A stretch of 61,234 nucleotides of DNA from DRR378314_843; one strand, 5' to 3'. Numbered from the stretch's first letter, positions 46,276-61,234 are shown. Numbers and translations are program-made. The notes: generated by a model not told the origin, from the sequence alone.

Positions 46276-46362
46276 GTTGGGGGCAACTTGTCCCTGTCCA
46301 TGTCTGCCTCGCCGGAAAGGCGACGTGTGTGGATTAGGGCTTGCCCTCTCCTCCCGCAGGCC

Positions 46363-46376
46363 CCTGCGCAGGCAGG
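46363..46376 (+). repeat. Left target-site duplication CCTGCGCAGGCAGG
   Basis: Identical direct copy at 61156-61169. The exact length (10-18 bp) is ambiguous because of the G/C runs; it is 14 bp if the TIR starts with GGGG. Confidence 0.85.
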
Positions 46377-46393
46377 GGGGTATAGTGATGTCT
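46377..46393 (+). repeat. Left terminal inverted repeat GGGGTATAGTGATGTCT
   Basis: Perfect reverse complement of 61139-61155. Extends imperfectly to 28 bp (24/28 match). Confidence 0.92.
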
Positions 46394-46432
46394 TGAAGAA
46401 AATACATTCACGTAGTCTGTTGAAGTTCAGTT

Positions 46433-47011
46433 TTGGGAGTTGAAGGAGAGTTGGCTGATATGGCGGAAATAACAGGTGTATTCCCGTACAACTGTGATGC
46501 GGACACCCTACGGGCTATTAACTTCATTTCATCTCGAGAAGCGGATGCAAATTCCCGCATTATTTGGCTGTATGAAGGGCCTGACTGTCGCATTTGCAGT
46601 TCACTCCCCAATCAACTTACACTCAGCGCCAAGCCTGTTGGTATCTCACAGTTTTGCTGTATGACGCCCAACACGCGTGCTGACGTTCAGCGCGAAATTG
46701 ACCGCTTGTCCACGACCTACGATCGGATTTTCCTATTGTTCGCGAACGCCCTTAACGAAGAAGATGTTGCGTCTGCCCCCATCATGGACGGCGCCTTGGT
46801 CATCGCGAATACCGAGCCAGGTGTGGTCTGGAGCGCTATTGGATTGATTGGAAAACTCCACGCATGGCAGGCGGCTTTGACGCAAGAACTTGTATTACTC
46901 ACATCAGACGATGTGTCCGTTGCGATGCAGACATATCAGTCGATGCAGAACCTTGAAATGAAGGCACTCCCACAGCCATTCCCAAGCCTCTATGGCATGC
47001 TTGCGATCTAA
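46433..47011 (+). CDS. Hypothetical casposon cargo protein
   Basis: 192-aa ORF just inside the left TIR (ATG at 46460 is an alternative start). No motif recognised. Confidence 0.5.
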   Translation: MGVEGELADMAEITGVFPYNCDADTLRAINFISSREADANSRIIWLYEGPDCRICSSLPNQLTLSAKPVGISQFCCMTPNTRADVQREIDRLSTTYDRIFLLFANALNEEDVASAPIMDGALVIANTEPGVVWSAIGLIGKLHAWQAALTQELVLLTSDDVSVAMQTYQSMQNLEMKALPQPFPSLYGMLAI

Positions 47012-47045
47012 ATCCGCCAGACACTCGATACTGTTCCGAAACCTC

Positions 47046-49562
47046 TTATTCCGTTCGTCTTAAAGCGTTTTCAATTGAGGTCACCTTATCTCGGTGCCCC
47101 TTTTTGGAGTAGTAACTGAGCGCGTTCTTCAAGAGGTTCTGTCCCTCAATGCGTAGATCTTTGTCTTCACTTGCAAGGTGCGCATTCAGCACAGCGATCC
47201 CGGCATTGTGTTGGGTCACCGCTATTTCCGATGGCAGGTCGGGCTTCTCAATCGAATTGAAATTCGCCAGCCCACTGAGTATGTTTCTGTACAAATCTAT
47301 TGCCCTTTCGAGATAGGAGAAATCCTGCGTTACATCCTCAAGCATTTGTAAAGCATAAGCGAGATTCCGGCTCCAAATAGCGCGGTCGTACGCATCTTCG
47401 TCAGCAACAAGAATATCAAGTGACTGTTCATACTCGAGGACAGCTTGATTAAGCATCTCCTCAGACCGCTTCAGAACGCCAACACTTCTGAGTGCGTTCC
47501 CCAAGTTGTTACGGGTCATGGCAATCGGTTTGAGAGAGGCTTTGTTCCACAAACTGATGGATTCTCGAAATGCCAAAATGGCCTGCTCCAAACTCTCGAT
47601 ATCTTTGCGCGTTTCACCAATGCGCAGACTTGTATTACCTATGTTATACAATACTCTGGCCGACTCTTCTGATTGCTGCATTGTTCTGTACAATCCCAGC
47701 GCCTGCTTTAGCAGAGCCAGTTCCGTGATCCAGTCGGCCGTTTGCTGTTTAAATTTTGCCCAAGATTCCAACGCGACCGCTAGGCACAAAGAATATCGTT
47801 TCCACACTCCAGGAGTGGATTTTTGATCCACTGGCTCAAGCGCAGCTCGATATGTTTCGCACGCCTGCATGAAATCTGCATCCTGCTGTGTTTGCAATGC
47901 ACGCGCCTGGAATGCAGTCCCTAAGTTAAACATGGTAAACGCCCAGTCTCTAGGCCCGCTACTCCTGCCTCGTTCAGCTAGCACCTCCCTGTACCCCGAA
48001 ATAGCTAAGTCAATTTTAGATAGATCATTTTCATACTCACCTAAGCGCGCAAGTGCGTTGGATAAGTTCATCTGTGCCGTTTGACGATCAAATCTAATTT
48101 CATCGGAGCACGGTGCTTTTAAGGTCTCTTCGTAAGCGCGACACGCCGCATTCAGGAAGTCGCAGTTCCGGGTCATCTCTCCAACTGCGGTAAATGCATT
48201 TCCCATATTGGTCATTATGTCGAACCAAATCTTCTTAGAACTGCTCATATCCGAAGTGGACAAAGCCGCCTGGAAGCAATCAATGGCTTCAATGATATAC
48301 TGCAAGTCATGGGTGCTTCGCCCTTTGAACAGCAGAGCTATGCCGAGTGCATTTTGTGTCGATGCCCACTCATCCGTTTGTTCATCGTCCATAAGGCTCA
48401 GGGCCTCACGATGTGCGTCAATCGCTTGATCCAATTTTTGTGGGTCGCCCAACGCAGTGCTCAAACTCGAGAGTACTAATCCGAGATTGTTCAGCGTTCC
48501 AATACGAGTCTTAATTGGAAGACCATTTGACTGTTGATAGAGTAGGTGTCGATAGCCCTCAACTGCGGCAAGATGAAACCTCACCGCTCCTAGTTTGGCG
48601 CCTAATTCAAGTAGTGCGTTTGCGGCTACTCCAATCAATTCAGGGTTCGCCTTATTTGAGATAGGTGCCTCTCTTAGGGAGATTCTCAGCAATTCGTTCT
48701 GAGCATTCAAAGCGCCTCGTTGTGCAATTTGGTGCAAAGTAGCTATTGCAGCTTCAACTTCGTCCGAATTCCCCTCTCGTAGAGTCGTTCGGATCCTCCT
48801 TAGATCACGCCCAGAAGTTCTGCGGCGGAAGACTGAAACAAGTCGAAAAAGGCTTGTGATCAACAATAAATCCAAAAAAGCACGGAATACGAAGTTCAAC
48901 GTCTTCCCCGCACCTCCACTCGCTTCAAGCCCACTGATGTTCCGGATTCCATACACTTCAGATGCATCCACCATTGGCACAGCTTTCAGGATCTCGCCCC
49001 AAATGTAGGTGGCGGTTGTCGCCACAGGAAAAACAGCTTGCCCCTGATAAATTTCGCTTTGTTCCGAGAGCCGTGAAAATCCGAGAGTGAAAAACACGAT
49101 CAAGAAGATAAGACCGACGATGATTTCATTTCCCAGATCATTCGCGGCTGGCACATCCTGACCATTGTCTTCTGCAATTTGTCGTTCCTGCTCATCGTGT
49201 TCCCAAGTGCGATAGATCGCCAACACACCTAGAATGCCAAAGAACACAGCCCCTATGGCAGCAAACACGGGTGCAAAAATAGCTATCGCCGTAAGAGCTA
49301 GGAAAATGCCGACAAAACTGGACCAGCGATAGATTGTCTTTTTGAAGCCAACTCCGGTCATTGGCGCAATAAACTGGACCAGTATGCGATCGATGCCCCG
49401 GAAGAAGGGGATCAGTGCATGGTTCAAAAGGGGCTGTCCCACAAGCCGGAACACAAAGAACACTACCAGCCCAACGAGAACGGCTATTCCACCAGCCACC
49501 ACGCCATTGGTGAGCGGGTCGATCGCGTGATCGATTGCAGCCTGCAGCCAGTCTGGTGACAT
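47046..49562 (-). CDS. Membrane protein with a large C-terminal TPR array
   Basis: N-terminal hydrophobic helices, then repeats TLNNLG, WASTQNALG, IMTNMGNAF, AQMNLSNAL, WAFTMFNLG, VLYNIGN, AMTRNNLGNAL and TQHNAG. Confidence 0.85.
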   Translation of the reverse strand: MSPDWLQAAIDHAIDPLTNGVVAGGIAVLVGLVVFFVFRLVGQPLLNHALIPFFRGIDRILVQFIAPMTGVGFKKTIYRWSSFVGIFLALTAIAIFAPVFAAIGAVFFGILGVLAIYRTWEHDEQERQIAEDNGQDVPAANDLGNEIIVGLIFLIVFFTLGFSRLSEQSEIYQGQAVFPVATTATYIWGEILKAVPMVDASEVYGIRNISGLEASGGAGKTLNFVFRAFLDLLLITSLFRLVSVFRRRTSGRDLRRIRTTLREGNSDEVEAAIATLHQIAQRGALNAQNELLRISLREAPISNKANPELIGVAANALLELGAKLGAVRFHLAAVEGYRHLLYQQSNGLPIKTRIGTLNNLGLVLSSLSTALGDPQKLDQAIDAHREALSLMDDEQTDEWASTQNALGIALLFKGRSTHDLQYIIEAIDCFQAALSTSDMSSSKKIWFDIMTNMGNAFTAVGEMTRNCDFLNAACRAYEETLKAPCSDEIRFDRQTAQMNLSNALARLGEYENDLSKIDLAISGYREVLAERGRSSGPRDWAFTMFNLGTAFQARALQTQQDADFMQACETYRAALEPVDQKSTPGVWKRYSLCLAVALESWAKFKQQTADWITELALLKQALGLYRTMQQSEESARVLYNIGNTSLRIGETRKDIESLEQAILAFRESISLWNKASLKPIAMTRNNLGNALRSVGVLKRSEEMLNQAVLEYEQSLDILVADEDAYDRAIWSRNLAYALQMLEDVTQDFSYLERAIDLYRNILSGLANFNSIEKPDLPSEIAVTQHNAGIAVLNAHLASEDKDLRIEGQNLLKNALSYYSKKGHRDKVTSIENALRRTE

Positions 49563-49669
49563 TTAGTGCTCCAAGAGATGTCCCCTTCGACCAGCATCTA
49601 CAGACAATCCAGAATTGCAACCCGATAGCTAAATTTACATCGCTGTTTGAGAGGCACGATCGCTGAGAC

Positions 49670-52384
49670 CTAGAAGAGTTGAGCCACTGCACTTCTGACA
49701 GGGTCACATTCCCCAAAGTCGCCAACCTTGTTAGCTTCCTTTCCAATCAGCTGAATTCCCAAAACCCGAATATGCCGGCGAGATGTCTCTCCAGCATCAA
49801 ATGGTCTCCCATTCTCGAATTTGTCTTCCGGGCTAAGATGATAGAGCGCCAACACCTCCGCGTATGTTTTGAGCGCTTCGATTGAAACCGGCTCACCCGT
49901 CTCACGGCAAAAGGCTGAAGCAGCCGCAACATCGGGATCACGCTCAAATGGCGCGATCGGCTTAAAGGTTTTCGCCTTGTTGGGCCGTCCGCGCTTTGCT
50001 GGATCGACGTCATCTATTTGGACATCAGCAAACACGCCTGTACGCGCGACCGGGGCAACCATAAAGCCGTACGGTTTTACTTGATCACAATACAGCTTTC
50101 CCTGGTTGAAGCGTTTCATCCAGGCGAGCAATGCAGGACTTGTGGCGACATAACGGATCATCGCAGGTTTTTTCAGAGATGGGTGGTAACTAAGCGGGGC
50201 TTGGTTCGGATACCGATCTAGTGCGGCTTTGATAATGTGATACCAAAGATCGTACTGCCAACGCTTCACACCGATCTCCGCAAGAGACGCGCTTGGCGCT
50301 GGAATTCCACGGGCGGGATCATCTTCATCGTAGGGCTCCATTAAATGTCCCAACCCATGCGCAGAAGCCTTACGGATAATCGGATGGCTTTCGGCATCAA
50401 GGTTGAACAAGGCGTAGCGCTTTGCTGAAATCGCCCAGCAATAAAGAGGTTCTGAGAAATCCGAATTGGGAAGGTAGTTCACATCTTCGACCTGAAGAAT
50501 CGAACCAGGCTTGTCGTAGGGATTAAGTGTCGCAAACCAACAAACTACGCGCTTGGCGCGGTTGTGAAATTCCTCGCGCGAAATACCGTCCGGACGCGCA
50601 AGCGCAATACTGTCGGTATCGCAGAACGCCCATCCTAATCCTTGATCAGCAGCAACACGCTCAGCGCACGCCAGCATCAGCCTTGCTGTTCCAGTTATGA
50701 GCGCAGCCAGCAATGGATTGAAGAACCTGCCAGGCTCTTCGATGGCGGTCGTAGAGCAGGTGAATGGTTCACCACCCGGTCCGTAGACTTCGAGTACTTT
50801 CGGCTTGGGGTGATCATCACGGATCACTTCGGCATACACGCCATAGCATGTGGAGTTCGCAAGGATCTTCAGACGCTTCTCTATCGGGTCCTTTCTAGCC
50901 TTGGCTTCATCCCGCATGTTAATGAGCGATACGAACATATCCTGCGTTTCTGGATCTATTTGATAGTCGGTCCTGCCCAGAAGGTTGATGGGCATCAAGC
51001 CTGTTTGCTTTGCTCCCGGCTTGAACCCAATTGCGCATTCGATCTTCGGCACTTTGCCGGTCAATATCTTTGACGCGATAAGGTCCGAAAGCGTGTACCA
51101 AAGCGACTTGTCAGAATGAACGTTGTTCAGTCCAATCGTCAGATTGTCCTTATCCGGTGAATAGTTTGCTCTTAGTGGAAGTGCATCGCCATTTGGCTTG
51201 AGCTGAACGATTGCGTGAAGTGAGAGCCAGGTTTCGGGTCGCTGGAGATCCCCAGCGTCGATATTCTCCAACAGTAAGCGTACATCCTCGGTTGCATCAT
51301 AGGTTTCAAACGTTTCCGCAATCAGGAACTTGTGTAACCCAAGCAGCGCGTTGACCGTTGGGTACATCGATTTGAAATCGCAATAGACCACTTCCTGGAC
51401 CTTGCGGCGTATCCGTATCTCAGCCCTCCCCCCATAGTATGAAGCCATGATGCAGCCGAACACCGCAGGATCGAGGTTCCCCCACCCATCATAGCGCAGG
51501 GGTTTGATGTTCATCTGTTTGAGCAAAGCCTTACCTATACTTGCCTCACTCAAGATTCGATGTAGCGGCGTATCAAGTTCAAATTCTGCGTACATCTTCG
51601 AGAGCGCTTCGAAACACTCCCATGTCGTTTGAACGTCGGCGCGTGCGTAATCCAGGTATGCGAATGTAATCGGCCCGCCATGTTCCTTCGTCTCGAGTTT
51701 TTGTGATTTGGTTTGCAATCGCTCCGCCAGCGCCTTCAGGGAACCGCGAAACGTCAGCAATGCAGCGGCCATCGTCTTCACGTCGAAGAAAGCACCGCGA
51801 TTGTGATTAGCCTGGAAACCACGCTTGCGCATGCCCCGCCCGACAAGCTGCTTACCTGGTTTGGAAAAGTCGATGAGCGAGGCGCTCGAGTTCAGGTGTT
51901 TGACACGGATGTTTGGTTCGCTCTTCCATTCGGATAAGGGGAACGTGAACCCTCCACGCATGCTGCCGCGCGCAATACCAGCGCCAAGCGCAATACGGGC
52001 AATATCGAAGGGTAAGTTGAACCCAATGATCGACCCGTTTCCGCGGTATCCGATCTTTAGAAGGATCTCTTCGCGGAACTGTTTAAGTGTTATCAACTCC
52101 AATCCATTCGCAGCACAGTACGCCCGGACAGTTTCCAGGTCTGCGGCGTTGAGATCGTCCGCAACGAAAATGTACTCGCGAACCAGTTTTCCGCTTTTAC
52201 GGAACTGGCACACACCAACCCGTAGCTTCTGCACCGCATCGATGGTCGTCTCAGTATCGAAGATGATCTGCCAATCCGAAACGACCTCCGGTTTACTGAA
52301 CTTGGCGATCTCGGAGAGTGGCCGCTTGTCTGGTCTCTGACTGAACGCACGGACCGCGGCATTCACGTTGAGGGTCGAAGTCAT
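49670..52384 (-). CDS. polB: Family B DNA polymerase with a 3'-5' exonuclease domain (casposon PolB)
   Basis: ExoI FDTET, ExoII FNLPFD and ExoIII YARAD; YYGGRAE; motif A DFKSMYP; motif B KILANSTCYG; motif C CDTDS; SAKRY. Confidence 0.93.
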   Translation of the reverse strand: MTSTLNVNAAVRAFSQRPDKRPLSEIAKFSKPEVVSDWQIIFDTETTIDAVQKLRVGVCQFRKSGKLVREYIFVADDLNAADLETVRAYCAANGLELITLKQFREEILLKIGYRGNGSIIGFNLPFDIARIALGAGIARGSMRGGFTFPLSEWKSEPNIRVKHLNSSASLIDFSKPGKQLVGRGMRKRGFQANHNRGAFFDVKTMAAALLTFRGSLKALAERLQTKSQKLETKEHGGPITFAYLDYARADVQTTWECFEALSKMYAEFELDTPLHRILSEASIGKALLKQMNIKPLRYDGWGNLDPAVFGCIMASYYGGRAEIRIRRKVQEVVYCDFKSMYPTVNALLGLHKFLIAETFETYDATEDVRLLLENIDAGDLQRPETWLSLHAIVQLKPNGDALPLRANYSPDKDNLTIGLNNVHSDKSLWYTLSDLIASKILTGKVPKIECAIGFKPGAKQTGLMPINLLGRTDYQIDPETQDMFVSLINMRDEAKARKDPIEKRLKILANSTCYGVYAEVIRDDHPKPKVLEVYGPGGEPFTCSTTAIEEPGRFFNPLLAALITGTARLMLACAERVAADQGLGWAFCDTDSIALARPDGISREEFHNRAKRVVCWFATLNPYDKPGSILQVEDVNYLPNSDFSEPLYCWAISAKRYALFNLDAESHPIIRKASAHGLGHLMEPYDEDDPARGIPAPSASLAEIGVKRWQYDLWYHIIKAALDRYPNQAPLSYHPSLKKPAMIRYVATSPALLAWMKRFNQGKLYCDQVKPYGFMVAPVARTGVFADVQIDDVDPAKRGRPNKAKTFKPIAPFERDPDVAAASAFCRETGEPVSIEALKTYAEVLALYHLSPEDKFENGRPFDAGETSRRHIRVLGIQLIGKEANKVGDFGECDPVRSAVAQLF

Positions 52385-52758
52385 TGGCCCGCCTCCCCAT
52401 CATAAGGGAGCACATGCTCTGATTGCTCTAGCAGCCACTCTCCGAACTGTGCGATCGTTTCCGTAATCCGCCGAAACCATTCCGCCAATGCCAGAAGGTA
52501 ACGTCCGATGGTTTCCATTTGTGGATTCTCAGACTGGGGCGCATATGCGAAGTCTTTCTCGATATCGCTCAATTCGCGGTGACAATTCGAGCACAGAACT
52601 CCGCCATCATCATGAAACTTGCGCGGAGCGATGTGCGCAAACTCCAGAGCAGCAGGGTGGTTCATATACCCGCAACACTGACAAATCGGATTGCGGGTTC
52701 GCAACCTTCTGTAGTCGCTTTCGCGGCGCAATTCTTCAGGGCTAATAATATCGTCCAT
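52381..52758 (-). CDS. HNH endonuclease-like zinc-binding protein
   Basis: CQCCG...EFAHI...LCSNCH. Its stop overlaps the polB start (ATGA). Confidence 0.8.
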   Translation of the reverse strand: MDDIISPEELRRESDYRRLRTRNPICQCCGYMNHPAALEFAHIAPRKFHDDGGVLCSNCHRELSDIEKDFAYAPQSENPQMETIGRYLLALAEWFRRITETIAQFGEWLLEQSEHVLPYDGEAGQ

Positions 52759-52770
52759 AGTAGGATCCTT

Positions 52771-53349
52771 TCATTGGACAACGACACGATAGATTTCATG
52801 GAAAAGCGGCTCATCCTTGAGCGCGAAGCGGATCAAGGCGTTGGGGTCGGTTTCGAACGGCCACGCCGTGCCATTGATGTCAGTCACGGTCGCGCCGTCG
52901 AACTCTTCGAGGTGAGTGAGGTCTTGCGTCAGGATGAATTGACGAACACGATTGTGGTAAACGCCAACGCGGCTCGCATCAGCAAACGTTGGAACAGTGA
53001 TCGCCTTGGAGTTCGCGCCAACAATGATCTGCACCCGGCGCGGACGGGCATCAGTGACAATCCAGCGACGCCCTTCCTTGACGCCGAGTTTCTTTGCGAC
53101 GAGGGCCCGTTTCAGTCGGTCCGGTGAGACATGAGCCGCTTTTGCCGCTGCCGTCAGCGACGTTCCGCCGTACATGGCCTGCAATGCCTGGGAGACGCTC
53201 TCGTCATTTATGGGCAGGCGAGCGCTCGCTTTGAGAGGGGCTTCACTAGGTTTCGGGTGGCCACGAGCCTGAGAGAGGGACAGACCACGCGCCTTGCCGC
53301 GCGCAATGCGGCGGGCGTACTCGGCTTTGTAGTCTCTCTTCTTGGCCAT
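52771..53349 (-). CDS. Putative DNA-binding protein (basic N-terminus plus HTH)
   Basis: MAKKRDYKAEYARRIARG...SQARGH, then an HTH-like GTSLTAAAKAAHVSPDRLKRAL. First gene of the polB operon. Confidence 0.7.
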   Translation of the reverse strand: MAKKRDYKAEYARRIARGKARGLSLSQARGHPKPSEAPLKASARLPINDESVSQALQAMYGGTSLTAAAKAAHVSPDRLKRALVAKKLGVKEGRRWIVTDARPRRVQIIVGANSKAITVPTFADASRVGVYHNRVRQFILTQDLTHLEEFDGATVTDINGTAWPFETDPNALIRFALKDEPLFHEIYRVVVQ

Positions 53350-53408
53350 TGTCCGGGCTCCAGTTCAAACGACTGAAAACCGGCATGACTCCGAAGGCAG
53401 GGACTCTT

Positions 53409-53485
53409 CATCCAATTCGGATAGGAAACAGAAATGTAATCTCTGCGACGCCTTGGTCTGCGACTTGCATCCAATTTGCGTAGGA
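53409..53485. promoter_or_regulatory. Pair of 18-bp repeats in the divergent promoter region (candidate operators)
   Basis: CATCCAATTCGGATAGGA (53409-53426) and CATCCAATTTGCGTAGGA (53468-53485) match at 15/18. Each is an imperfect dyad TCCAA-N6-TAGGA. Confidence 0.45.
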
Positions 53486-53505
53486 TTTGTAAACCGGGTG
53501 TCGCT

Positions 53506-54414: not shown

Positions 54415-54434
54415 CAGTAGATATCGGGGGCAAA

Positions 54435-55538
54435 ATGACACTTCAAACGCAAAGCGTTTCGGATGAAAACGCATATGACGAGTGGGCTGTCAGAAGCCAG
54501 TATTGGCAATCCGAATACAATTCTAGCCTACCGAAACGCAAACGCCGCGAACGCCAATCAAACCCGCTAATTTTAACTGGCTATGGTCTGTCTATCCGCG
54601 TCGACAAAGGTCGACTGGTCATCAAGGATGGGACAACTCACTTCCCTCAAGATCGGCGAGAATACGTATTCTTTAAAGGCAGTCTCGATATTCCACCCCG
54701 AATTATCGCGCTCGATGGTTTTGGGACAATCACACTCGATGCACTGGACTGGCTGGCAGAACAGAACATCGCGCTTATTCGAGTTAAGTGGAATGGGCAG
54801 TTCTTCTCGCTCATCAGCAATGGGGGGCAAGCTGCCGATCCGGAAAAGTTTACCTGGCAGATTAAGGCCCGAGAGGATGAGAGCGAAAAGTTAGCATTCT
54901 ATCTGCCGCTAATGGAAGGCAAGTTCTCCAATACGCTTGGAACTTTAGCCGACTACCTCCCACCATCCGCCGCCAAAGAAAGAGCGATTGAGAAGGTTAG
55001 GCATTATTTGCACCGCCTACAGAATGACCCACCAGATAAGTTGAAGATGTTGCTGGGCATCGAAGCACAAGTCGCCAGCCTGTACTTTGCTACATGGCGT
55101 GAATTGAAGATCAATTGGAAATCCAGCAAGCGCTATCCAATCCCGGACGAGTGGAAGAGTTTCTATTCGCGTGGGTCGCTGAAGATGATGAATAAAGGTG
55201 GCGCGAACATCTTCGCAACGCATCCGGTCAACGCGATGTTGAATTATGTCTATACTGTATTGCTTGGGCAAACACAGTTGCAGGTGATTGCCGACGGTTA
55301 TGATCCGATGCTCGGGGTGATACACACGCGTTCACGATCACAACACGGCCCACCGCGCCCAAGCTTTGCGATTGACATGATGGAGCCGATGCGGCCCGTG
55401 GTGGATCGCGTAGTATTGAAGCTTATTGCGGAAGAGACGTTTTCAGGGGCGGATTTTGATTTGCAGAGGGATGGGGTGGTGCGGGTGAATCCGGAACTAG
55501 TGCGAAGCCTTAGTCGACAAATAATTGCTGACGGGTAG
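54435..55538 (+). CDS. cas1: Cas1 integrase (casposase), solo
   Basis: LTGYGLSIRVDKGRLVI N-terminus; LLGIEAQVASLYF (Glu), PVNAMLNYVY, GYDPMLGVIH (His) and IDMMEPMRPVVD (Asp/Glu). ATG at 54435 follows a GGGGG RBS. Confidence 0.95.
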   Translation: MTLQTQSVSDENAYDEWAVRSQYWQSEYNSSLPKRKRRERQSNPLILTGYGLSIRVDKGRLVIKDGTTHFPQDRREYVFFKGSLDIPPRIIALDGFGTITLDALDWLAEQNIALIRVKWNGQFFSLISNGGQAADPEKFTWQIKAREDESEKLAFYLPLMEGKFSNTLGTLADYLPPSAAKERAIEKVRHYLHRLQNDPPDKLKMLLGIEAQVASLYFATWRELKINWKSSKRYPIPDEWKSFYSRGSLKMMNKGGANIFATHPVNAMLNYVYTVLLGQTQLQVIADGYDPMLGVIHTRSRSQHGPPRPSFAIDMMEPMRPVVDRVVLKLIAEETFSGADFDLQRDGVVRVNPELVRSLSRQIIADG

Positions 55539-55560
55539 ATCGAAATCACTTCTTTGGCAC

Positions 55561-58500
55561 TTACGAAATTCCCGGCTTGTTTTCCTGGGAAATACGCTCT
55601 TCAGCTTCGCGATCAGCCCATCCTTGGTCGCTCTTCGCTATCGAACGCAACAAAGACTGCGTATGCGGAAAATCATCTAGTTCATCTGCCCATTGCCCAA
55701 ATTTTGCAGCGGACTTGGCGTAGTAGTCTTCCATCGGGCCCGAAATCACACCACGAGAATTGAATTGTCCCGTGCGCATGGCAGAGATCAGTCGTTCACG
55801 TGGATGTGCTTCTATCACTTTTCGAACGGCCGCATGAGGCCAAATGTGATCTGTAGGATCGACCGGCGACTTTGATAGCAGCTGACCGACAGCTATCGAG
55901 GCTCCTTTTTCGAACTGCTTTTCACGTGCAATCTCAAACACCTTCTCCACCCATACCGTCAGCTTCTCTTCGTCGACGCCCCCCTCGTTCGATCCAGGAA
56001 TCACGTTCATATTTTCCATGACGTGAAAGGCTGGCCGCCAGATACCCTCGTCGGGCTGATCTTCTTCAGAGGAGTAAGCGACACCACTTTCGTCCTTAGG
56101 GGCGTCATCTCGCTTATACAAAATTGGAATTAAATCGAAAAATTCTTCAGGCTCCTCCGCAAGGAACCTGTAAAGCGCAGGGGCTCGTTCCGGGCCGTTG
56201 AAACGAAGCGCCTCAGCCAACGGAAATTCGAGCTTTGCAAGCTCGCTCAAACTCAAAGCACCGCGGTCCTCAGCGACTCCTAGGAGTTCCCAGTAGTGAT
56301 ACAACTCAAGCTGCCCTCTAGGCCGTCCCTCACTATAAGCGTTCGAGACACTTTTTAGGTACTCGTTCGCGATTAACCGAACAGTTTCGATTGGCACCGA
56401 GGGATCGTTCGCCACGACATGCGCTAAATCGTGGATGCGGCCCACGCTTTTGAACCCGTCGACAACGGCTTGCGAAAGGTTTTCGCCAACGAATGAGTAT
56501 GCATTGGCTGATCTCCAAAATCCTGAAGATACTTGCGGTGGTAATCCCCCAGTTGTCGCGGCATCCAGAATTGGGGGCGCGTTGTAGAGCCCTTCCCCAA
56601 CTAACTCGCTGAGGTGTTTAGAGAAGGCGTCAGCCTTAGAGTTGATAATAGCAACCCATTCGGCTGGATTTTTTATGGCAGCTCCTCGGGACATTCCTCG
56701 GATGAGTTCTTGGCCCTGCTCATCGTCAGACGATATCGTTAAGATGTGATCCATAATTGCGGAAGAATTGGGGGTGGCTTGGGCTAACGCTATTCCAGCG
56801 GCAAAAGGCGATCCCACTTTTTGCAAGAAGTCTGAAAGCTCATCTGCGTACTTGTTGAGTATGCCTTCAAGAGCCAGCCTTCGGTGTTCAGCCAAATCGC
56901 TTTGCGGATCATCAGTTCGCTCGCGAAATGTCTCGACCCAGCTCGATTTAAACAGCCATAGATATCGATTGGAGTTATCTGGTTGAAGTCTTTCGAATTC
57001 GACCTCCAACTGACTTAATCGTTCATTCTCAATCGCCCACTCAGCATCGGAAAACTGACGATGGCGTCCGGTGAATGTTCTCAACGCTTCGAGCAATTCG
57101 TCCACGCCGGTGTCATCGCCATTTATGCTGGATATCTGCGCAACAAATCGGTCGAAGATTTCGTTCACCATGGAAGGCACGCATTCTACCAACTTTGCCA
57201 GGTCAGCGGCGTTTGTCGAAGCAACACGGATGGCTTGTTCAACCGCTTCATCACGGACTTCGTAAAAATCGCCCCAAGTTAGGCGTTGCTCCTGAACCCT
57301 TGAGAAAATTGGTTTGCTAGTGCTCAGCACAAAGCGCCCGCCTCTATTGTCCAGAAGAGGAACTAGCAGTTCTAAAACGTGCGGGCCGAATTCGTTTGCT
57401 AGATCGCGAATGATCTTCGCCCTTTGCTTTGTTCCCGCAACTGTTTGAGGCACGCCAAAGGAGAGAATTCCTTGAAGCGAGGCTAAGGGCTGATTTCCTT
57501 GTTTCTCGTCGATTGGGGAGACAGCCAAATGAAGCTTCATCAAGAGCCGACAAACAAGCTCTACATGCTCGGACAACCAGGCGAGGCGTTCGAGGGCCCA
57601 CAAAAGAGACGCCCCCAAATGAAAATCTATGAAACTAAACTTGGACTCTTGCACTTTAAAGACTGCGGCCATTCCTTCGGCGTTCCCCTCGATGGCCGCT
57701 TCGAGGGACTCCAGAAAAGGCTGAGGAACACCTTCAGCGAGTAGAGGCAACCATTCTTCGATGGCAGCACCAAATTTGGGGTTATCCAGAAGCTGAGGAA
57801 CGCTCGTTTGATAGACGCTGCGACACCAATCAGCACATTTCTGTCCGTGAGGACGAAGACTCAAGTCGGGGTCTTCGCCAAATACCCCGATCAAAACAAA
57901 GGTAAGTATCACCCCACCGACAAAGTCACTGCTGAAACCGGAATATTCTGAAGGGTCGAAAACTCGATCTCTATCTGCACCCTGCTGAACTTTATCGTTC
58001 AACACTACACAGAGTAGATTCTCGAAAGCGTCGTAGTCGTCGTCAGTGTAATAGCGCGCAAGCCTAAAAAATGCGTCGACTGGTCCATTCAGCGTTACGA
58101 TGCTAGTCGTTGCAACAAACATGGGGTCTGCCGAACCAGCTCGGGCCAGCGGATTCCGTCCGTATTTGCGAACTATCGACTCGATCTGTGAATACGTTTC
58201 AACACCTGCGTGTTGCTTTAGCGCTTCAACATCTTTGTACATAAAGTTGCTCTTAGCTCCGTGCTTGCCTCGCTCTTCACGTCGGACAGCTCGACTTATG
58301 TTCCAAGCAGCAACCATTCCAAGGCGTTTGAGAAGTGGGGCGTCCGTTAAATCTGGATCAGCCCATGGGCATTTCTCCCCTTCGACAGTACCTCTAAGCC
58401 GTTCCAGTGCAGACAAATTTCTCCCGGCCGCTTTTGCAATGGTTTCGGCGCTCTGCGAACCAACCGGTTTGATATGTTTTGCGAATGTCGACACATCAGG

Positions 58501-59451
58501 TCGTTGAAGCAAATAGCAACTCGCTAGACCGGGATCGGACGAAATAGCTTTTGCAACCAAAACCGAGTGTTGCTCCAAACGATTAGGATAAGCCGCCGCT
58601 TCTCCTTCGAGGATTACAATATGTCGAGTTCCAACCTTTTTGAGTAGATTCAATCCTGCTTCGTTTTGGATGCAGACGACCGGAAAATGCTCTAGTTCTG
58701 GAGAGCTCAAACATAGTTGGCAAGCTGCGACGGCTGCCTCTCTGTCTGAATTCCCAAGCAAGTAGCTAATCGGTTCTTCTCTCAGGAGAGCATCTCTTAG
58801 TTCGAGCAGTGACTTTTGTCCGTCCAGTAGAATATCCGGCGAGACTTCGTCACGGAAACGGCGCTTCCAGAGGCCGATACGCTCTTCGGCGGAACAGACC
58901 CCGTACGCAGCTGCGCTGGGAATCAACCCGAGTTCTTGAAGCAACCATAAACACGTTTCGACATCTCGATTTACCCAGTCGATTAATCGAGACTGGTCAA
59001 AAAGCACGACCTTCTTAAACTTGGTGTCATCGGTAGCTTTCTGCTGCCAGAATACTTTCTTCTTTTGATCTTTTGTTTCGACTTCGATTTCGCCCGACCA
59101 AGTAGCGCGCCCAACCATCACAAATGCAAAGTCGTCTGGCTTTTTCAGGGACTCTTCAACCCGCTTCAGCTCGTATTTCGCTTTGCCCACCAGGTCAGTT
59201 CGCGAAGATGTGGCGCCGTATTCGATGCAAACATTTCCCGCTGGAATACCTTCGCATTCTTCATCGAGCGTAACGACGCCATCGAAGCCCGTGACTCGGT
59301 AGTTTTCGCCGTCGACAGTGTAGGCGTTCGCGACCTTGATACCTCCCGTCGATATGTTGAGTAAGCGCTTGAAGAGCTCGGGAAGAAGTTTTTCCCAATC
59401 TGGATTTTTTTCGGTAGATTCGAAATGCGTCTTTTCAATTAGTCGAGCCAC
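55561..59451 (-). CDS. Large (~1300 aa) uncharacterised cargo protein with a possible N-terminal restriction-endonuclease-like domain
   Basis: N-terminal GFDG...P.G...E.G...KA motif, helical body and C-terminal WP...VR...FNSRGV block. GTG start at 59451 follows GGGAG. Confidence 0.75.
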   Translation of the reverse strand: MARLIEKTHFESTEKNPDWEKLLPELFKRLLNISTGGIKVANAYTVDGENYRVTGFDGVVTLDEECEGIPAGNVCIEYGATSSRTDLVGKAKYELKRVEESLKKPDDFAFVMVGRATWSGEIEVETKDQKKKVFWQQKATDDTKFKKVVLFDQSRLIDWVNRDVETCLWLLQELGLIPSAAAYGVCSAEERIGLWKRRFRDEVSPDILLDGQKSLLELRDALLREEPISYLLGNSDREAAVAACQLCLSSPELEHFPVVCIQNEAGLNLLKKVGTRHIVILEGEAAAYPNRLEQHSVLVAKAISSDPGLASCYLLQRPDVSTFAKHIKPVGSQSAETIAKAAGRNLSALERLRGTVEGEKCPWADPDLTDAPLLKRLGMVAAWNISRAVRREERGKHGAKSNFMYKDVEALKQHAGVETYSQIESIVRKYGRNPLARAGSADPMFVATTSIVTLNGPVDAFFRLARYYTDDDYDAFENLLCVVLNDKVQQGADRDRVFDPSEYSGFSSDFVGGVILTFVLIGVFGEDPDLSLRPHGQKCADWCRSVYQTSVPQLLDNPKFGAAIEEWLPLLAEGVPQPFLESLEAAIEGNAEGMAAVFKVQESKFSFIDFHLGASLLWALERLAWLSEHVELVCRLLMKLHLAVSPIDEKQGNQPLASLQGILSFGVPQTVAGTKQRAKIIRDLANEFGPHVLELLVPLLDNRGGRFVLSTSKPIFSRVQEQRLTWGDFYEVRDEAVEQAIRVASTNAADLAKLVECVPSMVNEIFDRFVAQISSINGDDTGVDELLEALRTFTGRHRQFSDAEWAIENERLSQLEVEFERLQPDNSNRYLWLFKSSWVETFRERTDDPQSDLAEHRRLALEGILNKYADELSDFLQKVGSPFAAGIALAQATPNSSAIMDHILTISSDDEQGQELIRGMSRGAAIKNPAEWVAIINSKADAFSKHLSELVGEGLYNAPPILDAATTGGLPPQVSSGFWRSANAYSFVGENLSQAVVDGFKSVGRIHDLAHVVANDPSVPIETVRLIANEYLKSVSNAYSEGRPRGQLELYHYWELLGVAEDRGALSLSELAKLEFPLAEALRFNGPERAPALYRFLAEEPEEFFDLIPILYKRDDAPKDESGVAYSSEEDQPDEGIWRPAFHVMENMNVIPGSNEGGVDEEKLTVWVEKVFEIAREKQFEKGASIAVGQLLSKSPVDPTDHIWPHAAVRKVIEAHPRERLISAMRTGQFNSRGVISGPMEDYYAKSAAKFGQWADELDDFPHTQSLLRSIAKSDQGWADREAEERISQENKPGIS

Positions 59452-59711
59452 GTCCGCTCCCTGATTTAGCCACACGTTGATTCGGTATCACTTGTGCTCA
59501 ATAGAGCAACATCATTTGTCCATCGCGGCAAATCAGCTCTTCCTGGCAGTTCGGCGTGCCGCACAGGTCCGTGTAACTGACTCAAGAAGCGCAGTGCACA
59601 TAGCATCGGCTTGGAACTCCTCGAAAAATCCACGCGACCCTATTTGCTTTAAAGTATGAATTGGGCTTTTTCTGTTTCTCACCGATGGTGTTGGGGAGTT
59701 TTTGAAGGGAA

Positions 59712-61130
59712 TTGAGACTGTTGGACAATGGATTCAGTGACGATGTGCCGGAAAGGTTCACGCCTAGCGAACGAAACGTTGCGACCGCACTTTTTTCGAG
59801 TGGAGTATATTCCTTCGCAGAATGGTCATCCGTGGTGGATCGCGAACTGAGTAGCGACTTCTTGCTATGGATGATTTCCGATCAAACCATTTCGCATCCG
59901 GTCTTGTGCATCGAACGCGCAATATTTCCCGAGGATGTAACATTGCGTGCCTACAGGAGCGAGAAACACTTTGAGTTTATTGATTGCAGGTTTCACGGCA
60001 AACTAGACTTCCGCCACATCCGACTACGGCAACTTGTTTTAAACAAGAGCGAATTCAAACAAGCCCTACGATTGAATGGTGCTCAATTGTCTCGCGGCAT
60101 CATCGCAAATAATGCGAAATTTGAAGAGTTGGTTCTTCAAGCAGCAGAGTTAGATGGCAACCTTGAACTAAGTGGCTCAAAGGTAAACCGGCCAATACGA
60201 GCATATCAGCTCCAGGTGAAAAAAAGTCTATTCATCCGAGACGGTGCCGAAATAAATGGCGCAAATCTAATTGGCGCTACCATCGGCACTCATTGCCAGT
60301 TCAGGGCAGCGACGATATCGGGCAATTTAGACTTAACAGGAGCTACGGTTCGCGGAGAGCTCCAGTTCGGGCACCCAGACTACGAAGCAATTCGATGGAT
60401 TGAGAATGCCGAACTATCACTTCGTAATGTAAAGGCCCGGTTCTTTGGCGCGCAACTCCGAGACTTTCAAATAGGCAGAGACTACATCCCGGCTGATCTT
60501 ACAGGATTGAGTTTTGAAGAGTTTGCTAGAGTTGGAGACTCGAACACGTCATCCATCGCCAACGAGCCTGCGCGCTCAATTCTAACTTGGTTAAAATACT
60601 CTGCGAAAAAGCGGACACGTTTCGATCCAAGGCCATATTTAACGGTGGCTAACGCTCTAGAACGAGCAGGCGAGTTGAGAACGGCTAAGAAGATCAAGAT
60701 TGGTCTAGGATGGAAAGATACGTTCCGGTCAAATTCTCCACCGCTTACGAGAATAGGTAAGATTCTGTCGGGCCTTTTCATTGGTTTCGGCCATGCTCCA
60801 TCAAGAGCTCTAAGCCTGTTCTTCTTACTCCTCGGCCTAGGTTTTCTCCACGGCTACCTTCTTATGTCCGAGGGTAAGTTCGATTGGATCGGCTCAGAAA
60901 AGTCGATCGCTGCTGTCCGCTTGTCACTTGAAAACTCAGCACCGCTGATTGCCTTCAACAACGGTGTGGAAACGAGCGGATGCTCAATTCATCAGGATCA
61001 AAATTGCATTCCTCTAAATGAGATTAGCGCTTTGCTCTTTGATGTACAAAAGGTGTTGTCGTTGGTGTTAGCCAGCTACTTCATCGCCGCAATTACCGGG
61101 TTCGCCTCGGTCAGTGCTCGCCGAGAATAA
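59712..61130 (+). CDS. Beta-helix/pentapeptide-like repeat protein with a C-terminal membrane (channel-like) domain
   Basis: Repeats LRLNGAQL, LELSGSKV, ANLIGATI and LDLTGATV; PYL.VA..L...G; GFGHAPSRAL followed by TM, SLENSAPLI and a second TM. Confidence 0.75.
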   Translation: MRLLDNGFSDDVPERFTPSERNVATALFSSGVYSFAEWSSVVDRELSSDFLLWMISDQTISHPVLCIERAIFPEDVTLRAYRSEKHFEFIDCRFHGKLDFRHIRLRQLVLNKSEFKQALRLNGAQLSRGIIANNAKFEELVLQAAELDGNLELSGSKVNRPIRAYQLQVKKSLFIRDGAEINGANLIGATIGTHCQFRAATISGNLDLTGATVRGELQFGHPDYEAIRWIENAELSLRNVKARFFGAQLRDFQIGRDYIPADLTGLSFEEFARVGDSNTSSIANEPARSILTWLKYSAKKRTRFDPRPYLTVANALERAGELRTAKKIKIGLGWKDTFRSNSPPLTRIGKILSGLFIGFGHAPSRALSLFFLLLGLGFLHGYLLMSEGKFDWIGSEKSIAAVRLSLENSAPLIAFNNGVETSGCSIHQDQNCIPLNEISALLFDVQKVLSLVLASYFIAAITGFASVSARRE

Positions 61131-61138
61131 TTTCTGTC

Positions 61139-61155
61139 AGACATCACTATACCCC
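61139..61155 (-). repeat. Right terminal inverted repeat AGACATCACTATACCCC
   Basis: Perfect reverse complement of 46377-46393. Confidence 0.92.
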
Positions 61156-61169
61156 CCTGCGCAGGCAGG
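61156..61169 (+). repeat. Right target-site duplication CCTGCGCAGGCAGG
   Basis: Identical to 46363-46376. Confidence 0.85.
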
Positions 61170-61201
61170 GGCCCATCTCTGAAAGTTCGTCTCTCGCCAG
61201 T

Positions 61202-61227
61202 TCGTCCTTCGACTTCGCTCAGGATGA
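61202..61227. repeat. REP-like palindrome TCGTCCTTCGACTTCGCTCAGGATGA
   Basis: Imperfect hairpin. The reverse strand TCATCCTGAGCGAAGTCGAAGGA resembles a common bacterial extragenic repeat as I recall it. Confidence 0.5.
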
Positions 61228-61234
61228 GTCTGGT

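What the first reader, a model, noticed from the sequence alone, without database searches (positions are those of the whole stretch)
46363..61169. Complete bacterial casposon with intact TIRs and TSD
Seen: 17-bp perfect TIRs (46377-46393 and 61139-61155) and an identical flanking direct repeat. Also seen: a cas1 with E/H/D catalytic motifs and no cas2 or array, a PolB with all Exo and Pol motifs, and HNH and HTH genes, in DNA more AT-rich than the host. Established: solo Cas1 + PolB + TIR + TSD defines casposons, which are rare and mostly archaeal, with few bacterial examples. Inference: perfect ends and unbroken core genes suggest a recent, possibly still mobile element in a bacterial host.
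Basis: partly seen in the sequence, partly recalled or inferred. Interest (0 to 1): 0.92.

Follow-up and report, generated by a model that had tools for sequence, protein, structure and literature searches.

The report
Intact bacterial casposon in a hairpin
This is a complete, intact-looking 14.8-kb casposon (a transposon that moves with a Cas1 enzyme and carries its own DNA polymerase) of the known bacterial family 3, inserted recently and exactly in the middle of a small DNA palindrome, which a closely related genome still carries uninterrupted.

Summary
The element spans 46377-61155 (14,779 bp). It has perfect 17-bp terminal inverted repeats and a 14-bp target duplication, CCTGCGCAGGCAGG, at 46363-46376 and 61156-61169.

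The core genes are intact: PolB, HNH, a conserved 192-aa protein and a 365-aa stand-alone Cas1. There is no cas2 in the element and no CRISPR-like array in the window.

It is not a new kind. The Cas1 is 57-59% identical to those of Henriciella marina and Hyphomonas sp. CY54-11-8, both published family 3 hosts. 184 relatives were confirmed in species genomes, and 65 of the 80 kept show the same PolB linkage.

What this window adds:
- A true filled/empty pair for a bacterial casposon.
- A target that is a 22-nt palindrome inside a repeated intergenic element. The 14-mer recurs, identical or one base different, at two related casposons.
- A mosaic cas1.
- A 3.45-kb non-autonomous derivative with AbiJ cargo in G001.

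In 29 of 40 resolved relatives the insertion lies in a GC-rich hairpin (0.9% of control windows). This scan had already noted that rule on other genomes.

The parts
46363..46376 (.). Left copy of the 14-bp target-site duplication, CCTGCGCAGGCAGG. Identity with the right copy extends to 18 nt (46361-46378).
   Evidence: a single copy lies at the empty site of G001:C3
46377..46393 (+). Left terminal inverted repeat: 17 bp perfect (GGGGTATAGTGATGTCT), imperfect to about 46404.
   Evidence: the terminus GGGG(G)TATAG recurs at the ends of most resolved relatives
46461..47011 (+). ORF1, 183 aa from the ATG (192 aa from the TTG at 46433). No family match; treated as cargo.
   Evidence: searches found no family. 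Contigs of two runs hold it at about 94% identity and then run into unlike DNA.
47046..49562 (-). 838-aa protein with C-terminal TPR repeats. Lineage-specific cargo beside PolB.
   Evidence: TPR_12 E 6.9e-9, TPR_10 E 1.5e-8. Only 1 of 80 relatives (L047) has a homologue, 50% identical and in the same position.
49670..52384 (-). Family B DNA polymerase, 904 aa, with Exo I-III and Pol A-C motifs intact.
   Evidence: homologue beside Cas1 in 65 of 80 relatives
52381..52758 (-). HNH endonuclease, 125 aa. Its last 4 bases (the stop codon among them) overlap the start of polB.
   Evidence: phrog_2255 E 6.9e-9; Cys pairs and the H..N..H motif read; present in 61 of 80 relatives
52771..53349 (-). Conserved 192-aa core protein (orf5), probably a winged helix-turn-helix DNA binder with a C-terminal alpha/beta domain.
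   Evidence: Present in 70 of 80 relatives. Model pLDDT 83. Top fold matches are mostly winged-helix regulators, but none is significant (best E 0.054). Weak support for binding to Cas1.
53476..54414 (+). orf6, 312 aa, with a MerR-like N-terminal DNA-binding domain. It is one of two alternative genes found between orf5 and cas1.
   Evidence: 85% identical in L051. 19 homologues found in the gaps of 70 loci. MerR in 3 of 20 members, MerR_1 in 2, HTH_17 in 2; the window's own copy matches none. The fold search was not significant.
54441..55538 (+). Stand-alone Cas1 (casposase), 365 aa, with no fused HTH or zinc domain and a conserved basic N-terminal patch (KRKRRER).
   Evidence: mosaic with a breakpoint near residue 60-70
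55561..59475 (-). 1304-aa protein of unknown function; cargo.
   Evidence: phrog_18693 E 1.7e-81. No Pfam, NCBIfam or PADLOC match. 90% identical copy in the same position in L048. The Atlas gives only hypothetical clusters.
59712..61130 (+). 472-aa pentapeptide-repeat protein; cargo.
   Evidence: Pentapeptide_3 E 1.4e-8; found in 0 of 80 relatives
61139..61155 (-). Right terminal inverted repeat, 17 bp perfect, ending ...CTATACCCC-3'.
61156..61169 (.). Right copy of the 14-bp target-site duplication.
46310..46362 (.). Host side of the landing pad: a repeated intergenic element whose 3' end supplies the left arm of the 22-nt target palindrome (GGCCCCTGC-GCAG-GCAGGGGCC at the empty site).
   Evidence: Copies at G001:C24 (87%) and C6 (81%); empty-site sequence; seven exact copies of the 14-mer in G001

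Best explanation
This is an autonomous family 3 (bacterial) casposon that entered this strain's chromosome recently.

By analogy with the archaeal casposases that have been studied (inferred, not shown here), a multimer of the element's Cas1 joins the two 3'-OH ends (...CTATACCCC-3') to the two strands of the target, 14 bp apart. Gap repair then duplicates those 14 bp.

The two cuts lie symmetrically about the dyad of a 22-nt GC-rich palindrome. I therefore read the palindrome as the thing the integration machinery recognises. After insertion both junctions keep a 7-bp-stem hairpin.

The element's own PolB is presumed to copy it. The HNH nuclease and the two small DNA-binding proteins (orf5, orf6) are presumed helpers for end or target recognition and for excision. 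This Cas1 has no fused helix-turn-helix domain, and in the M. mazei enzyme that domain is needed for integration.

The remaining four genes (ORF1, the TPR protein, the 1304-aa protein and the pentapeptide protein) are interchangeable cargo of unknown function.
For: Shown here:
- Structure: perfect inverted repeats, an identical duplication and unbroken core ORFs.
- Empty site: present at the exact breakpoints in a genome whose flank is 99% identical.
- Metagenome runs: X3 and X6 cover both flanks and have contigs that join 46374 to 61169. X6 has no cover inside the element; X3 has only sparse low-depth contigs there, up to 10% unlike, so from relatives.
- Composition: G+C falls by about 0.1 inside the element.
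- Cas1 relatives: best solved match is 6opm (E 2e-20, against 1.2e-11 for the next; family profile 121.5 against 80.3 bits). All eight subtype-specific CRISPR Cas1 models score far below their cut-offs.
- Identity to Cas1 of published family 3 hosts: 57% to the Henriciella marina protein P0031 (55% over the full alignment) and 59% to the Hyphomonas sp. CY54-11-8 locus L051.
- Linkage in the 80 relatives: PolB in 65, HNH in 61, orf5 in 70. Of the 15 without PolB, 13 have under 2.1 kb of sequence upstream of cas1.
- Tree: the window's Cas1 is sister to L047 (SH-aLRT 99), inside 77 casposon-type Cas1 proteins (65 of the 80 loci show PolB beside them) and apart from an RT-Cas1 that has Cas2 and Cas6 beside it.
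- Duplication length: exactly 14 bp wherever the flanks leave no ambiguity. This holds for L049, L052, L069, L124 and L125 and for G001's own casposon.
- Hairpin targets: the rebuilt empty site has a perfect stem of 7 bp or more at 29 of 40 resolved sites, against 0.9% of 54,199 control windows in the same loci. The dyad lies exactly at the centre of the duplication at 18 of 40, against 0.037%.
- Same target reused: the 14-mer serves G001's different casposon (Cas1 74% identical). With one changed base it serves L049, and with three it serves a mini-element in G001.

From papers (passages read): the M. mazei casposase is a tetramer that holds a 14-bp target, its casposon ends read 5'-TATATCCC, and removing its HTH domain abolishes integration (PMC6977970).

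Weak: Cas1 dimer with orf5 scored 0.59 (runs 0.02, 0.61, 0.59) against a best control of 0.00. The tool rates this 'weak support'. The mark was reached by 51 of 78 solved complexes and 2 of 108 mismatched pairs. At 0.60 or under, only 5 of those 78 solved complexes reached it, as did all 4 mismatches that passed, so such a pass is more often wrong than right. The runs agree in at least 0% of their contacts and the partner's pLDDT is at least 66.
Against: - No transposition, excision or integration was observed, so activity is inferred from intactness alone.
- Precise loss of the element in the G001 lineage, by recombination between the 18-nt repeats, would also leave a clean single-copy site.
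- The joined form in run X1, which also holds the whole element, rests on one contig with 31 nt on its shorter side. It could come from a paralogous copy of the repeated landing pad.
- The tree had only one CRISPR-type Cas1 and no archaeal casposases, and it is the quick tree because the careful search did not finish.
- The only Pfam match of the polymerase is to DNA_pol_B_2, at 32 bits. I could not tell whether it is of the RNA-primed type that the papers report for family 3.
- The HTH assignments for orf5 and orf6 rest on matches that are not significant.
- My script resolved no ends in 26 of the 66 PolB-bearing loci, and 11 of the 40 resolved sites have no stem of 7 bp or more.
- No near-identical copy was found: the best DNA identity in 151 family genomes is 77%, and the best Cas1 protein in the large collection is 83% identical. 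The donor is therefore unknown.
Confidence: 0.88

Rival explanations
1. The element is an old resident and the difference between the strains is a loss. G001's lineage deleted it precisely by recombination between the two 18-nt direct repeats, so the polymorphism says nothing about recent transposition.
For: Recombination between 18-nt perfect repeats would restore exactly the observed single-copy site. No transposition event was observed.
Against: - The inverted repeats and both copies of the duplication are perfect and all nine ORFs are open.
- G+C has not drifted toward that of the host.
- No close copy was found in the other 150 family genomes searched.
- Run X6 covers the flanks but not the element, and run X3 holds only sparse, unlike contigs inside it.
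- Several independent losses are less likely than one gain.
Confidence: 0.07
2. It is a real casposon but no longer able to move: an intact-looking copy whose enzymes or ends are defective, or which the host has taken over for its cargo.
For: Activity was not tested. Relatives do decay: in L048 the PolB region reads as two ORFs of 603 and 333 aa and the Cas1 segment holds a stop.
Against: The catalytic E, H and D residues and all polymerase motifs are present. The ends are perfect. The site is empty in a genome about 98-99% alike (the figure is my estimate from the shared 31-mers).
Confidence: 0.1
3. It is a genomic island moved by some other machinery (a tyrosine or serine recombinase, a phage or a plasmid) that merely carries cas1 and polB.
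For: Four of the nine genes have no known function, so an unrecognised recombinase cannot be excluded.
Against: - No integrase or transposase family was matched in any of the four libraries.
- The end motif and the 14-bp duplication travel with the Cas1-PolB core through relatives whose cargo differs entirely.
- The 14-bp stagger equals that of the solved casposase complex.
Confidence: 0.02
4. It is a remnant of a CRISPR adaptation module, with a Cas1 that once served an array.
For: The general Cas1 models match well.
Against: - No cas2 in the element and no array in the window.
- All subtype-specific Cas1 models score below their cut-offs.
- PolB-HNH linkage is constant across relatives.
- A genuine RT-Cas1-Cas2-Cas6 locus in a relative (L127) sits on a very long branch away from this clade.
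Confidence: 0.01

Closest known systems
HypCY54-C1, the family 3 casposon reported from Hyphomonas sp. CY54-11-8 (Krupovic et al. 2016, PMC4779613, passages read). L051 is the Cas1 locus the scan found in that genome; I take it to be that element but did not check it against the paper's coordinates.
   Same: The core order is the same: PolB, HNH and orf5 on one strand, orf6 and Cas1 on the other. orf5 is 82% and orf6 85% identical. Cas1 residues 1-60 are 92-95% identical. The end motif is similar (GGGGTATAG...), and L051 is also inserted in a GC-rich hairpin, followed there by a T run.
   Different: The rest of Cas1 is only 32-68% identical, and overall identity is 59%. PolB is 61% identical. 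The cargo is entirely different: the paper lists a ParB-like protein and a serine resolvase for HypCY54-C1, while this element has the TPR, 1304-aa and pentapeptide proteins. The target sequence also differs.
HenMar-C1 and HenMar-C2, family 3 casposons of Henriciella marina DSM 19595 (Krupovic et al. 2014 and 2016; PMC4046053, PMC4779613, passages read)
   Same: Alphaproteobacterial host of the same family. The Cas1 has no fused domains. HNH and a conserved HTH protein are present, and the insertion is intergenic. The H. marina Cas1 protein P0031 is 57% identical.
   Different: Different cargo: the papers list a Cas4-helicase fusion, a C5 methyltransferase and a Ser/Thr kinase for HenMar-C1. 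I did not fetch the H. marina locus, so I did not compare its ends or target.
Family 2 casposon of Methanosarcina mazei and its casposase (PDB 6opm; Hickman et al. 2020, PMC6977970, passages read)
   Same: It is the best solved relative of this Cas1. It uses a 14-bp target, and its ends are alike (5'-TATATCCC there...CTATACCCC-3' here). Strain-to-strain presence/absence and tandem or solo ends are known there (PMC4779613), and I see the same in G001.
   Different: The host is archaeal. The casposase has a C-terminal HTH domain needed for activity, which this Cas1 lacks. The target is the 3' end of a tRNA-Leu gene rather than a free-standing GC-rich palindrome.
Cas1-Cas2 spacer integrase of CRISPR-Cas
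   Same: Homologous catalytic protein. It makes staggered attacks on both sides of an often palindromic repeat, which is then duplicated. Here too the duplicated segment is the core of a palindrome.
   Different: There is no Cas2, no array and no leader here. What is inserted is a 14.8-kb self-replicating element, not a spacer of about 30 bp, and the duplicated unit is 14 bp, not 24-47 bp.

Membership tests
Casposon (superfamily) | Stand-alone Cas1 homologue with the catalytic E/H/D residues | tested here: met
   PF01867 E 8e-35; E244, H331 and D348 invariant in 24 sequences
Casposon (superfamily) | Family B DNA polymerase inside the element | tested here: met
   Pfam and PHROG polymerase matches; all Exo and Pol motifs read
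Casposon (superfamily) | Terminal inverted repeats flanked by a target-site duplication | tested here: met
   17-bp perfect inverted repeats and a 14-bp (up to 18-bp) duplication
Casposon (superfamily) | No cas2, no CRISPR array, no other recombinase | tested here: met
   None among the nine ORFs in four libraries; no array in the window. Host ORFs of the window were not all scanned.
Casposon (superfamily) | Evidence that it is an insertion (empty site at the same breakpoints) | tested here: met
   G001:C3 has a single copy of the target
Family 3 (bacterial) casposons | Cas1 groups with Cas1 of published family 3 elements | tested here: met
   57% identity to the H. marina Cas1 and 59% to that of Hyphomonas sp. 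CY54-11-8; same clade as L051 in the tree. No family 1, 2 or 4 sequences were in the tree.
Family 3 (bacterial) casposons | [quoted passage not shown] | tested here: inconclusive
   HNH is met. The conserved 192-aa protein is present in 70 of 80 relatives, but its HTH nature rests on fold matches that are not significant.
Family 3 (bacterial) casposons | RNA-primed type of PolB, as stated in PMC4779613 | tested here: inconclusive
   The only Pfam match is a weak one to DNA_pol_B_2 (32 bits). No PolB phylogeny was made.
Family 3 (bacterial) casposons | Bacterial host, intergenic insertion | tested here: met
   The flanking gene is a TrcR-family regulator (E 1.1e-60). The insertion lies 142 nt after its stop. 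The closest named casposon loci are from Hyphomonadaceae.
CRISPR-Cas adaptation module | Cas1 with adjacent Cas2 and an array; Cas1 reaches a subtype model's cut-off | tested here: not met
   No cas2 and no array. The eight subtype models score 25-85 bits against cut-offs of 120-560.

The most novel reading that the evidence does not exclude
Family 3 casposases recognise dyad symmetry. They cut 14 bp apart, centred on GC-rich palindromes such as terminators and repeated intergenic hairpins.

In this Hyphomonas-like lineage the palindrome belongs to a dispersed repeat, so the chromosome offers several ready landing pads. These pads are shared by at least two distinct autonomous casposons. They are also shared by a non-autonomous 3.45-kb derivative carrying an abortive-infection gene, which the casposase would have to mobilise in trans.

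That would make these elements a small transposon community that shuttles conflict genes. Its habit of duplicating a short palindromic target, sometimes in tandem, would be a living model for how a CRISPR repeat could arise.

The separate winged-helix protein orf5 may supply the DNA-binding function that family 2 casposases carry as a fused domain.
Probability: 0.45. Interest if true: 0.8.

Novelty: new member of a known kind. Interest (0 to 1): 0.58.

Why it matters
No bacterial casposase features in the casposon papers I read: a 2023 review (PMC9939771, passages read) lists biochemical data only for three archaeal casposases. A 2016 study (PMC4779613, passages read) drew its evidence of casposon mobility from archaeal Methanosarcina mazei strains.

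This locus offers a clean bacterial test case:
- an intact element;
- a matching empty site in a sister genome;
- an unambiguous 14-bp duplication;
- a short palindromic target;
- a related element and a mini-element that use the same target.

It makes two questions testable. The first is whether a Cas1-family integrase picks its site by hairpin or dyad symmetry, as CRISPR integrases do with palindromic repeats. The second is whether a separate HTH protein replaces the fused HTH domain of the archaeal enzymes.

The element itself is an ordinary member of family 3. The survey also shows the family is far commoner in Alphaproteobacteria than the 'handful' known in 2016.

Tried and rejected
- **Own genome.** The window's assembly is not held, so I could not look for further copies or empty sites in the same strain. 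G001 was used instead.
- **tRNA or structured RNA as target.** There is no tRNA in the window. No Rfam family was found in the window or in four G001 loci around the landing pads. tRNA-type targeting, as in family 2, is rejected here.
- **Terminator of the upstream gene as target.** The TrcR-family gene has its own hairpin and T run just after its stop. The insertion lies further on, in a repeated element without a T run. Here the target is a hairpin but probably not a terminator. Only 9 of 40 resolved sites have an adjacent T or A run.
- **Excision in the source population.** The joined form in run X1 rests on one contig with 31 nt on one side and may come from a paralogous repeat. All four runs are stored as contigs, which cannot show rare forms. 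No conclusion.
- **Known defence function for the cargo.** PADLOC gave only a weak TPR match (E 0.0047) and nothing for the 1304-aa, pentapeptide or ORF1 proteins. The Atlas returned only hypothetical clusters for the 1304-aa protein.
- **Fold searches.** Those for orf5 and orf6 gave no match at E 0.001 or better. A PDB profile search with orf5 gave nothing below E 0.48.
- **First end-finding script.** Without a motif anchor it returned chance palindromes for several loci (for example L050, L094, L096, L108, L126). Those were replaced by the motif-anchored search.
- **A close DNA relative of the whole element.** None was found in 151 family genomes. The cargo regions matched nothing except one weak hit at E 9.3e-5.
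- **Careful maximum-likelihood tree.** It did not finish in the time allowed, so the quick tree is reported.
- **Supplementary tables of the casposon papers.** These hold the published TIR, TSD and target lists and were closed. A published note on hairpin targets could be hidden there.
Full report

Yes. The left end reads ...GCAGGCC|CCTGCGCAGGCAGG|GGGGTATAGTGATGTCT... and the right end ...AGACATCACTATACCCC|CCTGCGCAGGCAGG|GGCCCATCT.... Because the target is itself a palindrome, the perfect inverted repeat runs on to 22 nt. The imperfect arms reach 46 nt at 83%, the longest of the 25 pairs shown of the 62 found in the region.

The direct repeat is identical over 18 nt, and the 14-mer CCTGCGCAGGCAGG occurs exactly twice in the window, at the two ends. 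In 2-kb bins that lie wholly inside the element G+C is 0.49-0.54, against 0.56-0.63 outside.

**2. Gene content**

Nine ORFs fill the element almost without gaps.

- **Cas1** matches PF01867 at E 8e-35 and the general NCBIfam model (102.9 bits, cut-off 71.7). It reaches none of the eight subtype-specific cut-offs.
  - An alignment with 23 homologues puts its start at the ATG at 54441 (365 aa).
  - The E, H and D residues are invariant.
- **The polymerase** has Exo I-III and Pol A-C motifs readable in its translation.
- **The HNH gene**'s last 4 bases (the stop codon among them) overlap the start of polB, and it matches PHROG HNH families (best E 6.9e-9; motif).
- **No cas2** is among the nine ORFs, and the window has no CRISPR-like array.
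- **The 'HTH genes'** are the weakest part of the observation.
  - The conserved 192-aa protein (orf5) gives a confident model (pLDDT 83). Its best fold matches are mostly winged-helix regulators, but none is significant (best E 0.054).
  - orf6 has a well-folded N-terminal domain that resembles MerR-type DNA-binding domains, again without significance.

**3. The empty site**

The window's own assembly is not held. The nearest held genome, G001, matches the left flank at 99% over 1,979 nt up to the end of the target. It matches the right flank starting from the target. The two matches overlap by exactly the 18 duplicated bases.

The alignment shows one uninterrupted copy...GCAGGCCCCTGCGCAGGCAGGGGCCCATCT....

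In public runs, metagenomes X3 and X6 cover both flanks and have short contigs that join 46374 to 61169. X6 has no cover inside the element. X3 has only sparse low-depth contigs there, up to 10% unlike, which I read as relatives. Those contigs are short, and the landing pad is a repeated sequence, so I count this as consistent rather than independent proof.

**4. What family is it?**

- The closest Cas1 proteins that carry names come from Henriciella, Hyphomonas, Hirschia and Ponticaulis. They include Henriciella marina (57%).
- A scan of one genome per species confirmed 184 relatives among 229 pattern matches, and the best 80 were kept. These include Hyphomonas sp. CY54-11-8 (L051, 59%).
- H. 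marina and Hyphomonas sp. CY54-11-8 are hosts of published family 3 casposons (PMC4046053, PMC4779613; passages read).
- Of the 80 loci, PolB lies beside Cas1 in 65, HNH in 61 and orf5 in 70. Thirteen of the 15 without PolB have under 2.1 kb of sequence on that side. Two (L071, L121) have 10 kb and no PolB.
- The best solved relative is 6opm, both for the protein (E 2e-20, against 1.2e-11 for the next) and for the family profile (121.5 against 80.3 bits). I take 6opm to be the M. mazei casposase structure because the paper on that structure cites the code.
- A quick tree held 78 rows: the window, 76 loci and one RT-Cas1 that has Cas2 and Cas6 beside it. Four loci were dropped because their matched segment held a stop.
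  - The window's Cas1 is sister to L047 (support 99).
  - Both lie inside a Hyphomonadaceae group of six (support 100).
  - The CRISPR-type protein sits on a very long branch.
  - With one outgroup this is only a weak test against CRISPR clades. The subtype models and the gene linkage carry more weight.

**5. How it inserts**

Where the flanks allow no ambiguity, the duplication is 14 bp. This holds for five relatives and for G001's own casposon. For that element the left end (C51), the right end (C24) and an unoccupied paralogous site (C6) can be compared. A 14-bp reading of the window gives symmetric ends, GGGG...CCCC.

At the empty site the 14 bp lie exactly in the middle of a 22-nt palindrome with a 9-bp stem and a GCAG loop.

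I tested whether this is general.

- Of 66 PolB-bearing loci (65 relatives plus the window), a motif-anchored script resolved ends with a direct repeat of 11 nt or more in 40.
- The rebuilt empty site has a perfect stem of 7 bp or more in 29 of the 40. In 54,199 control windows from the host flanks of the same loci the figure is 0.9%.
- The dyad coincides exactly with the centre of the repeat in 18 of 40, against 0.037% of controls.
- An adjacent T or A run, marking a likely intrinsic terminator, is present in 9 of 40.
- Limits: the controls include coding DNA, where hairpins are rarer. Eleven resolved sites have no such stem, and 26 loci were not resolved.
- Survival of harmless insertions could explain a bias toward intergenic hairpins, but not the exact centring.

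The M. mazei structure shows a casposase tetramer clamping a 14-bp target with ends 5'-TATATCCC (PMC6977970). That is the same stagger and a similar end as here, so I infer the same chemistry. After insertion each junction keeps a 7-bp-stem hairpin.

**6. What is particular to this lineage**

- **A repeated landing pad.**
  - The target is not the terminator of the upstream TrcR-family gene, which has its own hairpin and T run.
  - It is the end of a repeated intergenic element. Copies of the 70 nt to the left of the insertion lie on two other G001 contigs.
  - The exact 14-mer occurs seven times in G001.
- **Shared target.**
  - G001 carries a different casposon: Cas1 74% and PolB 58% identical, with SMEK and DUF2326 cargo. 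It is inserted at another copy of the same 14-mer.
  - L049, from another member of the family, uses the 14-mer with one changed base in similar flanks.
- **A mini-element.**
  - G001 contig C2 holds a 3.45-kb element with a degenerate left end and a perfect right end.
  - It is flanked by a 14-bp duplication that shares 11 of 14 bases with this target.
  - It carries AbiJ and two other genes but no Cas1 or PolB.
  - It is followed at once by a lone left end.
  - Tandem and solo ends are known for archaeal casposons (PMC4779613). I did not find them reported for bacterial ones.

**7. Mosaic structure**

- Cas1 residues 1-60 are 92-95% identical to L051 and 45-65% to L047. Residues 61-140 are 85-95% identical to L047 and 35-68% to L051.
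- orf5 (82%) and orf6 (85%) also follow L051, while HNH (77%) follows L047.
- The space between orf5 and cas1 holds one of two unrelated genes. About 20 of 70 loci have an orf6-like gene on the cas1 strand (19 found by iterated search). Most of the others have an ORF of about 210-250 aa on the other strand.
- The 1304-aa cargo gene is 90% identical in L048, at the same position.
- ORF1, with the left end attached in one case, occurs at about 94% identity in metagenome contigs that then run into unlike DNA.
- These elements clearly exchange modules.

**8. Cargo and helpers**

The TPR, 1304-aa, pentapeptide and ORF1 proteins match no defence model and no informative family. Their function is unknown.

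This Cas1 lacks the fused HTH domain that the M. mazei enzyme needs, and orf5 is nearly always present. I therefore asked whether orf5 binds a Cas1 dimer.

- The score was 0.59 (runs 0.02, 0.61, 0.59) against a best control of 0.00. The tool calls this weak support.
- The mark was reached by 51 of 78 solved complexes and 2 of 108 mismatches.
- At 0.60 or under, only 5 of those 78 solved complexes reached it, as did all 4 mismatches that passed.
- The runs agree in at least 0% of their contacts, and the partner's pLDDT is at least 66.
- It is a lead only.

**9. Novelty**

The element is a new member of family 3.

I searched the held papers for casposons together with terminators, palindromes, hairpins and the host genera (listings only). 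I read passages of five casposon papers. They say only that bacterial casposons lie in intergenic regions. I found no statement on hairpin targets, but the supplementary tables were closed.

The hairpin rule is not new to this scan. Five earlier notes on other genomes report it. I reached it here independently, before reading them.

No close DNA relative of this element was found in 151 genomes of the family. Core matches occur in 21 of the 151, with a best identity of 77%. Cas1 of any kind was found in 7 of 41 relatives, including 4 of 25 in the same genus.

**10. Verdict**

This is a well-preserved, recently inserted family 3 casposon. It is useful as a bacterial model but ordinary in kind. 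Its main added value is the filled/empty pair, the shared palindromic landing pad and the mini-element next door.

Noticed in passing
L045:16465-19917 and L046:25-39 (G001 contig C2): A 3.45-kb element with casposon-type ends: a degenerate left end, a perfect right end and a 14-bp duplication on both sides. It carries AbiJ (AbiJ_NTD3 E 2e-35, Abi_C E 4.4e-18), a TauD-like protein and a 332-aa ORF, but no Cas1 or PolB. A lone left end follows straight after its right duplication. It looks like a non-autonomous casposon derivative plus a solo end in tandem.
   Followed up: partly
L004 (G001:C51) and L044 (G001:C24, whole contig): G001's own casposon has the same end motif and the same 14-mer target. 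It has a TPR gene at the left end, but different right-hand cargo: a SMEK-domain protein (E 8.4e-45) and a DUF2326 protein (E 2.5e-20). From memory, that pair belongs to the ABC-three-component conflict systems. An unoccupied paralogous site lies on C6 (L015, near 2370).
   Followed up: partly
window 54441-54650 against the rest of cas1: Recombination breakpoint inside cas1. The first 60 codons are 92-95% identical to the Hyphomonas sp. CY54-11-8 locus (L051). The next 80 are 85-95% identical to L047.
   Followed up: yes
window 46377-47038: Contigs of runs X2 and X3 hold the ORF1 region at about 94% identity and then run into unlike DNA on both sides. In X3 the match starts exactly at the left end of the element. 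The ORF1 cassette therefore travels in other elements or sits at other sites.
   Followed up: no
window 61195-61234: The host DNA just right of the insertion is a short repeat with about 20 matches across G001. It is a different family from the repeat that carries the target.
   Followed up: no
L048:5165-7970 and 9673-10755: In this Henriciella MAG casposon the PolB region reads as two ORFs (603 and 333 aa) and the Cas1 match contains a stop. Yet it carries a 90% identical copy of the 1304-aa cargo gene. This is either a decaying copy or assembly error.
   Followed up: no
gap between orf5 and cas1 in 70 related loci (window 53350-54440): Two mutually exclusive, unrelated genes occupy this slot. 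One is an orf6-like gene of about 300 aa on the cas1 strand (about 20 loci). The other is an ORF of about 210-250 aa on the opposite strand (most of the rest, including L047).
   Followed up: partly
window 46374, 47820, 50592, 51395, 51428, 55979, 56770, 58020, 59791: Contigs of run X1, the only run that holds the whole element, lack 1-2 letters at these places relative to the window (table 4). If real, several would be frameshifts. They may equally be contig errors.
   Followed up: no
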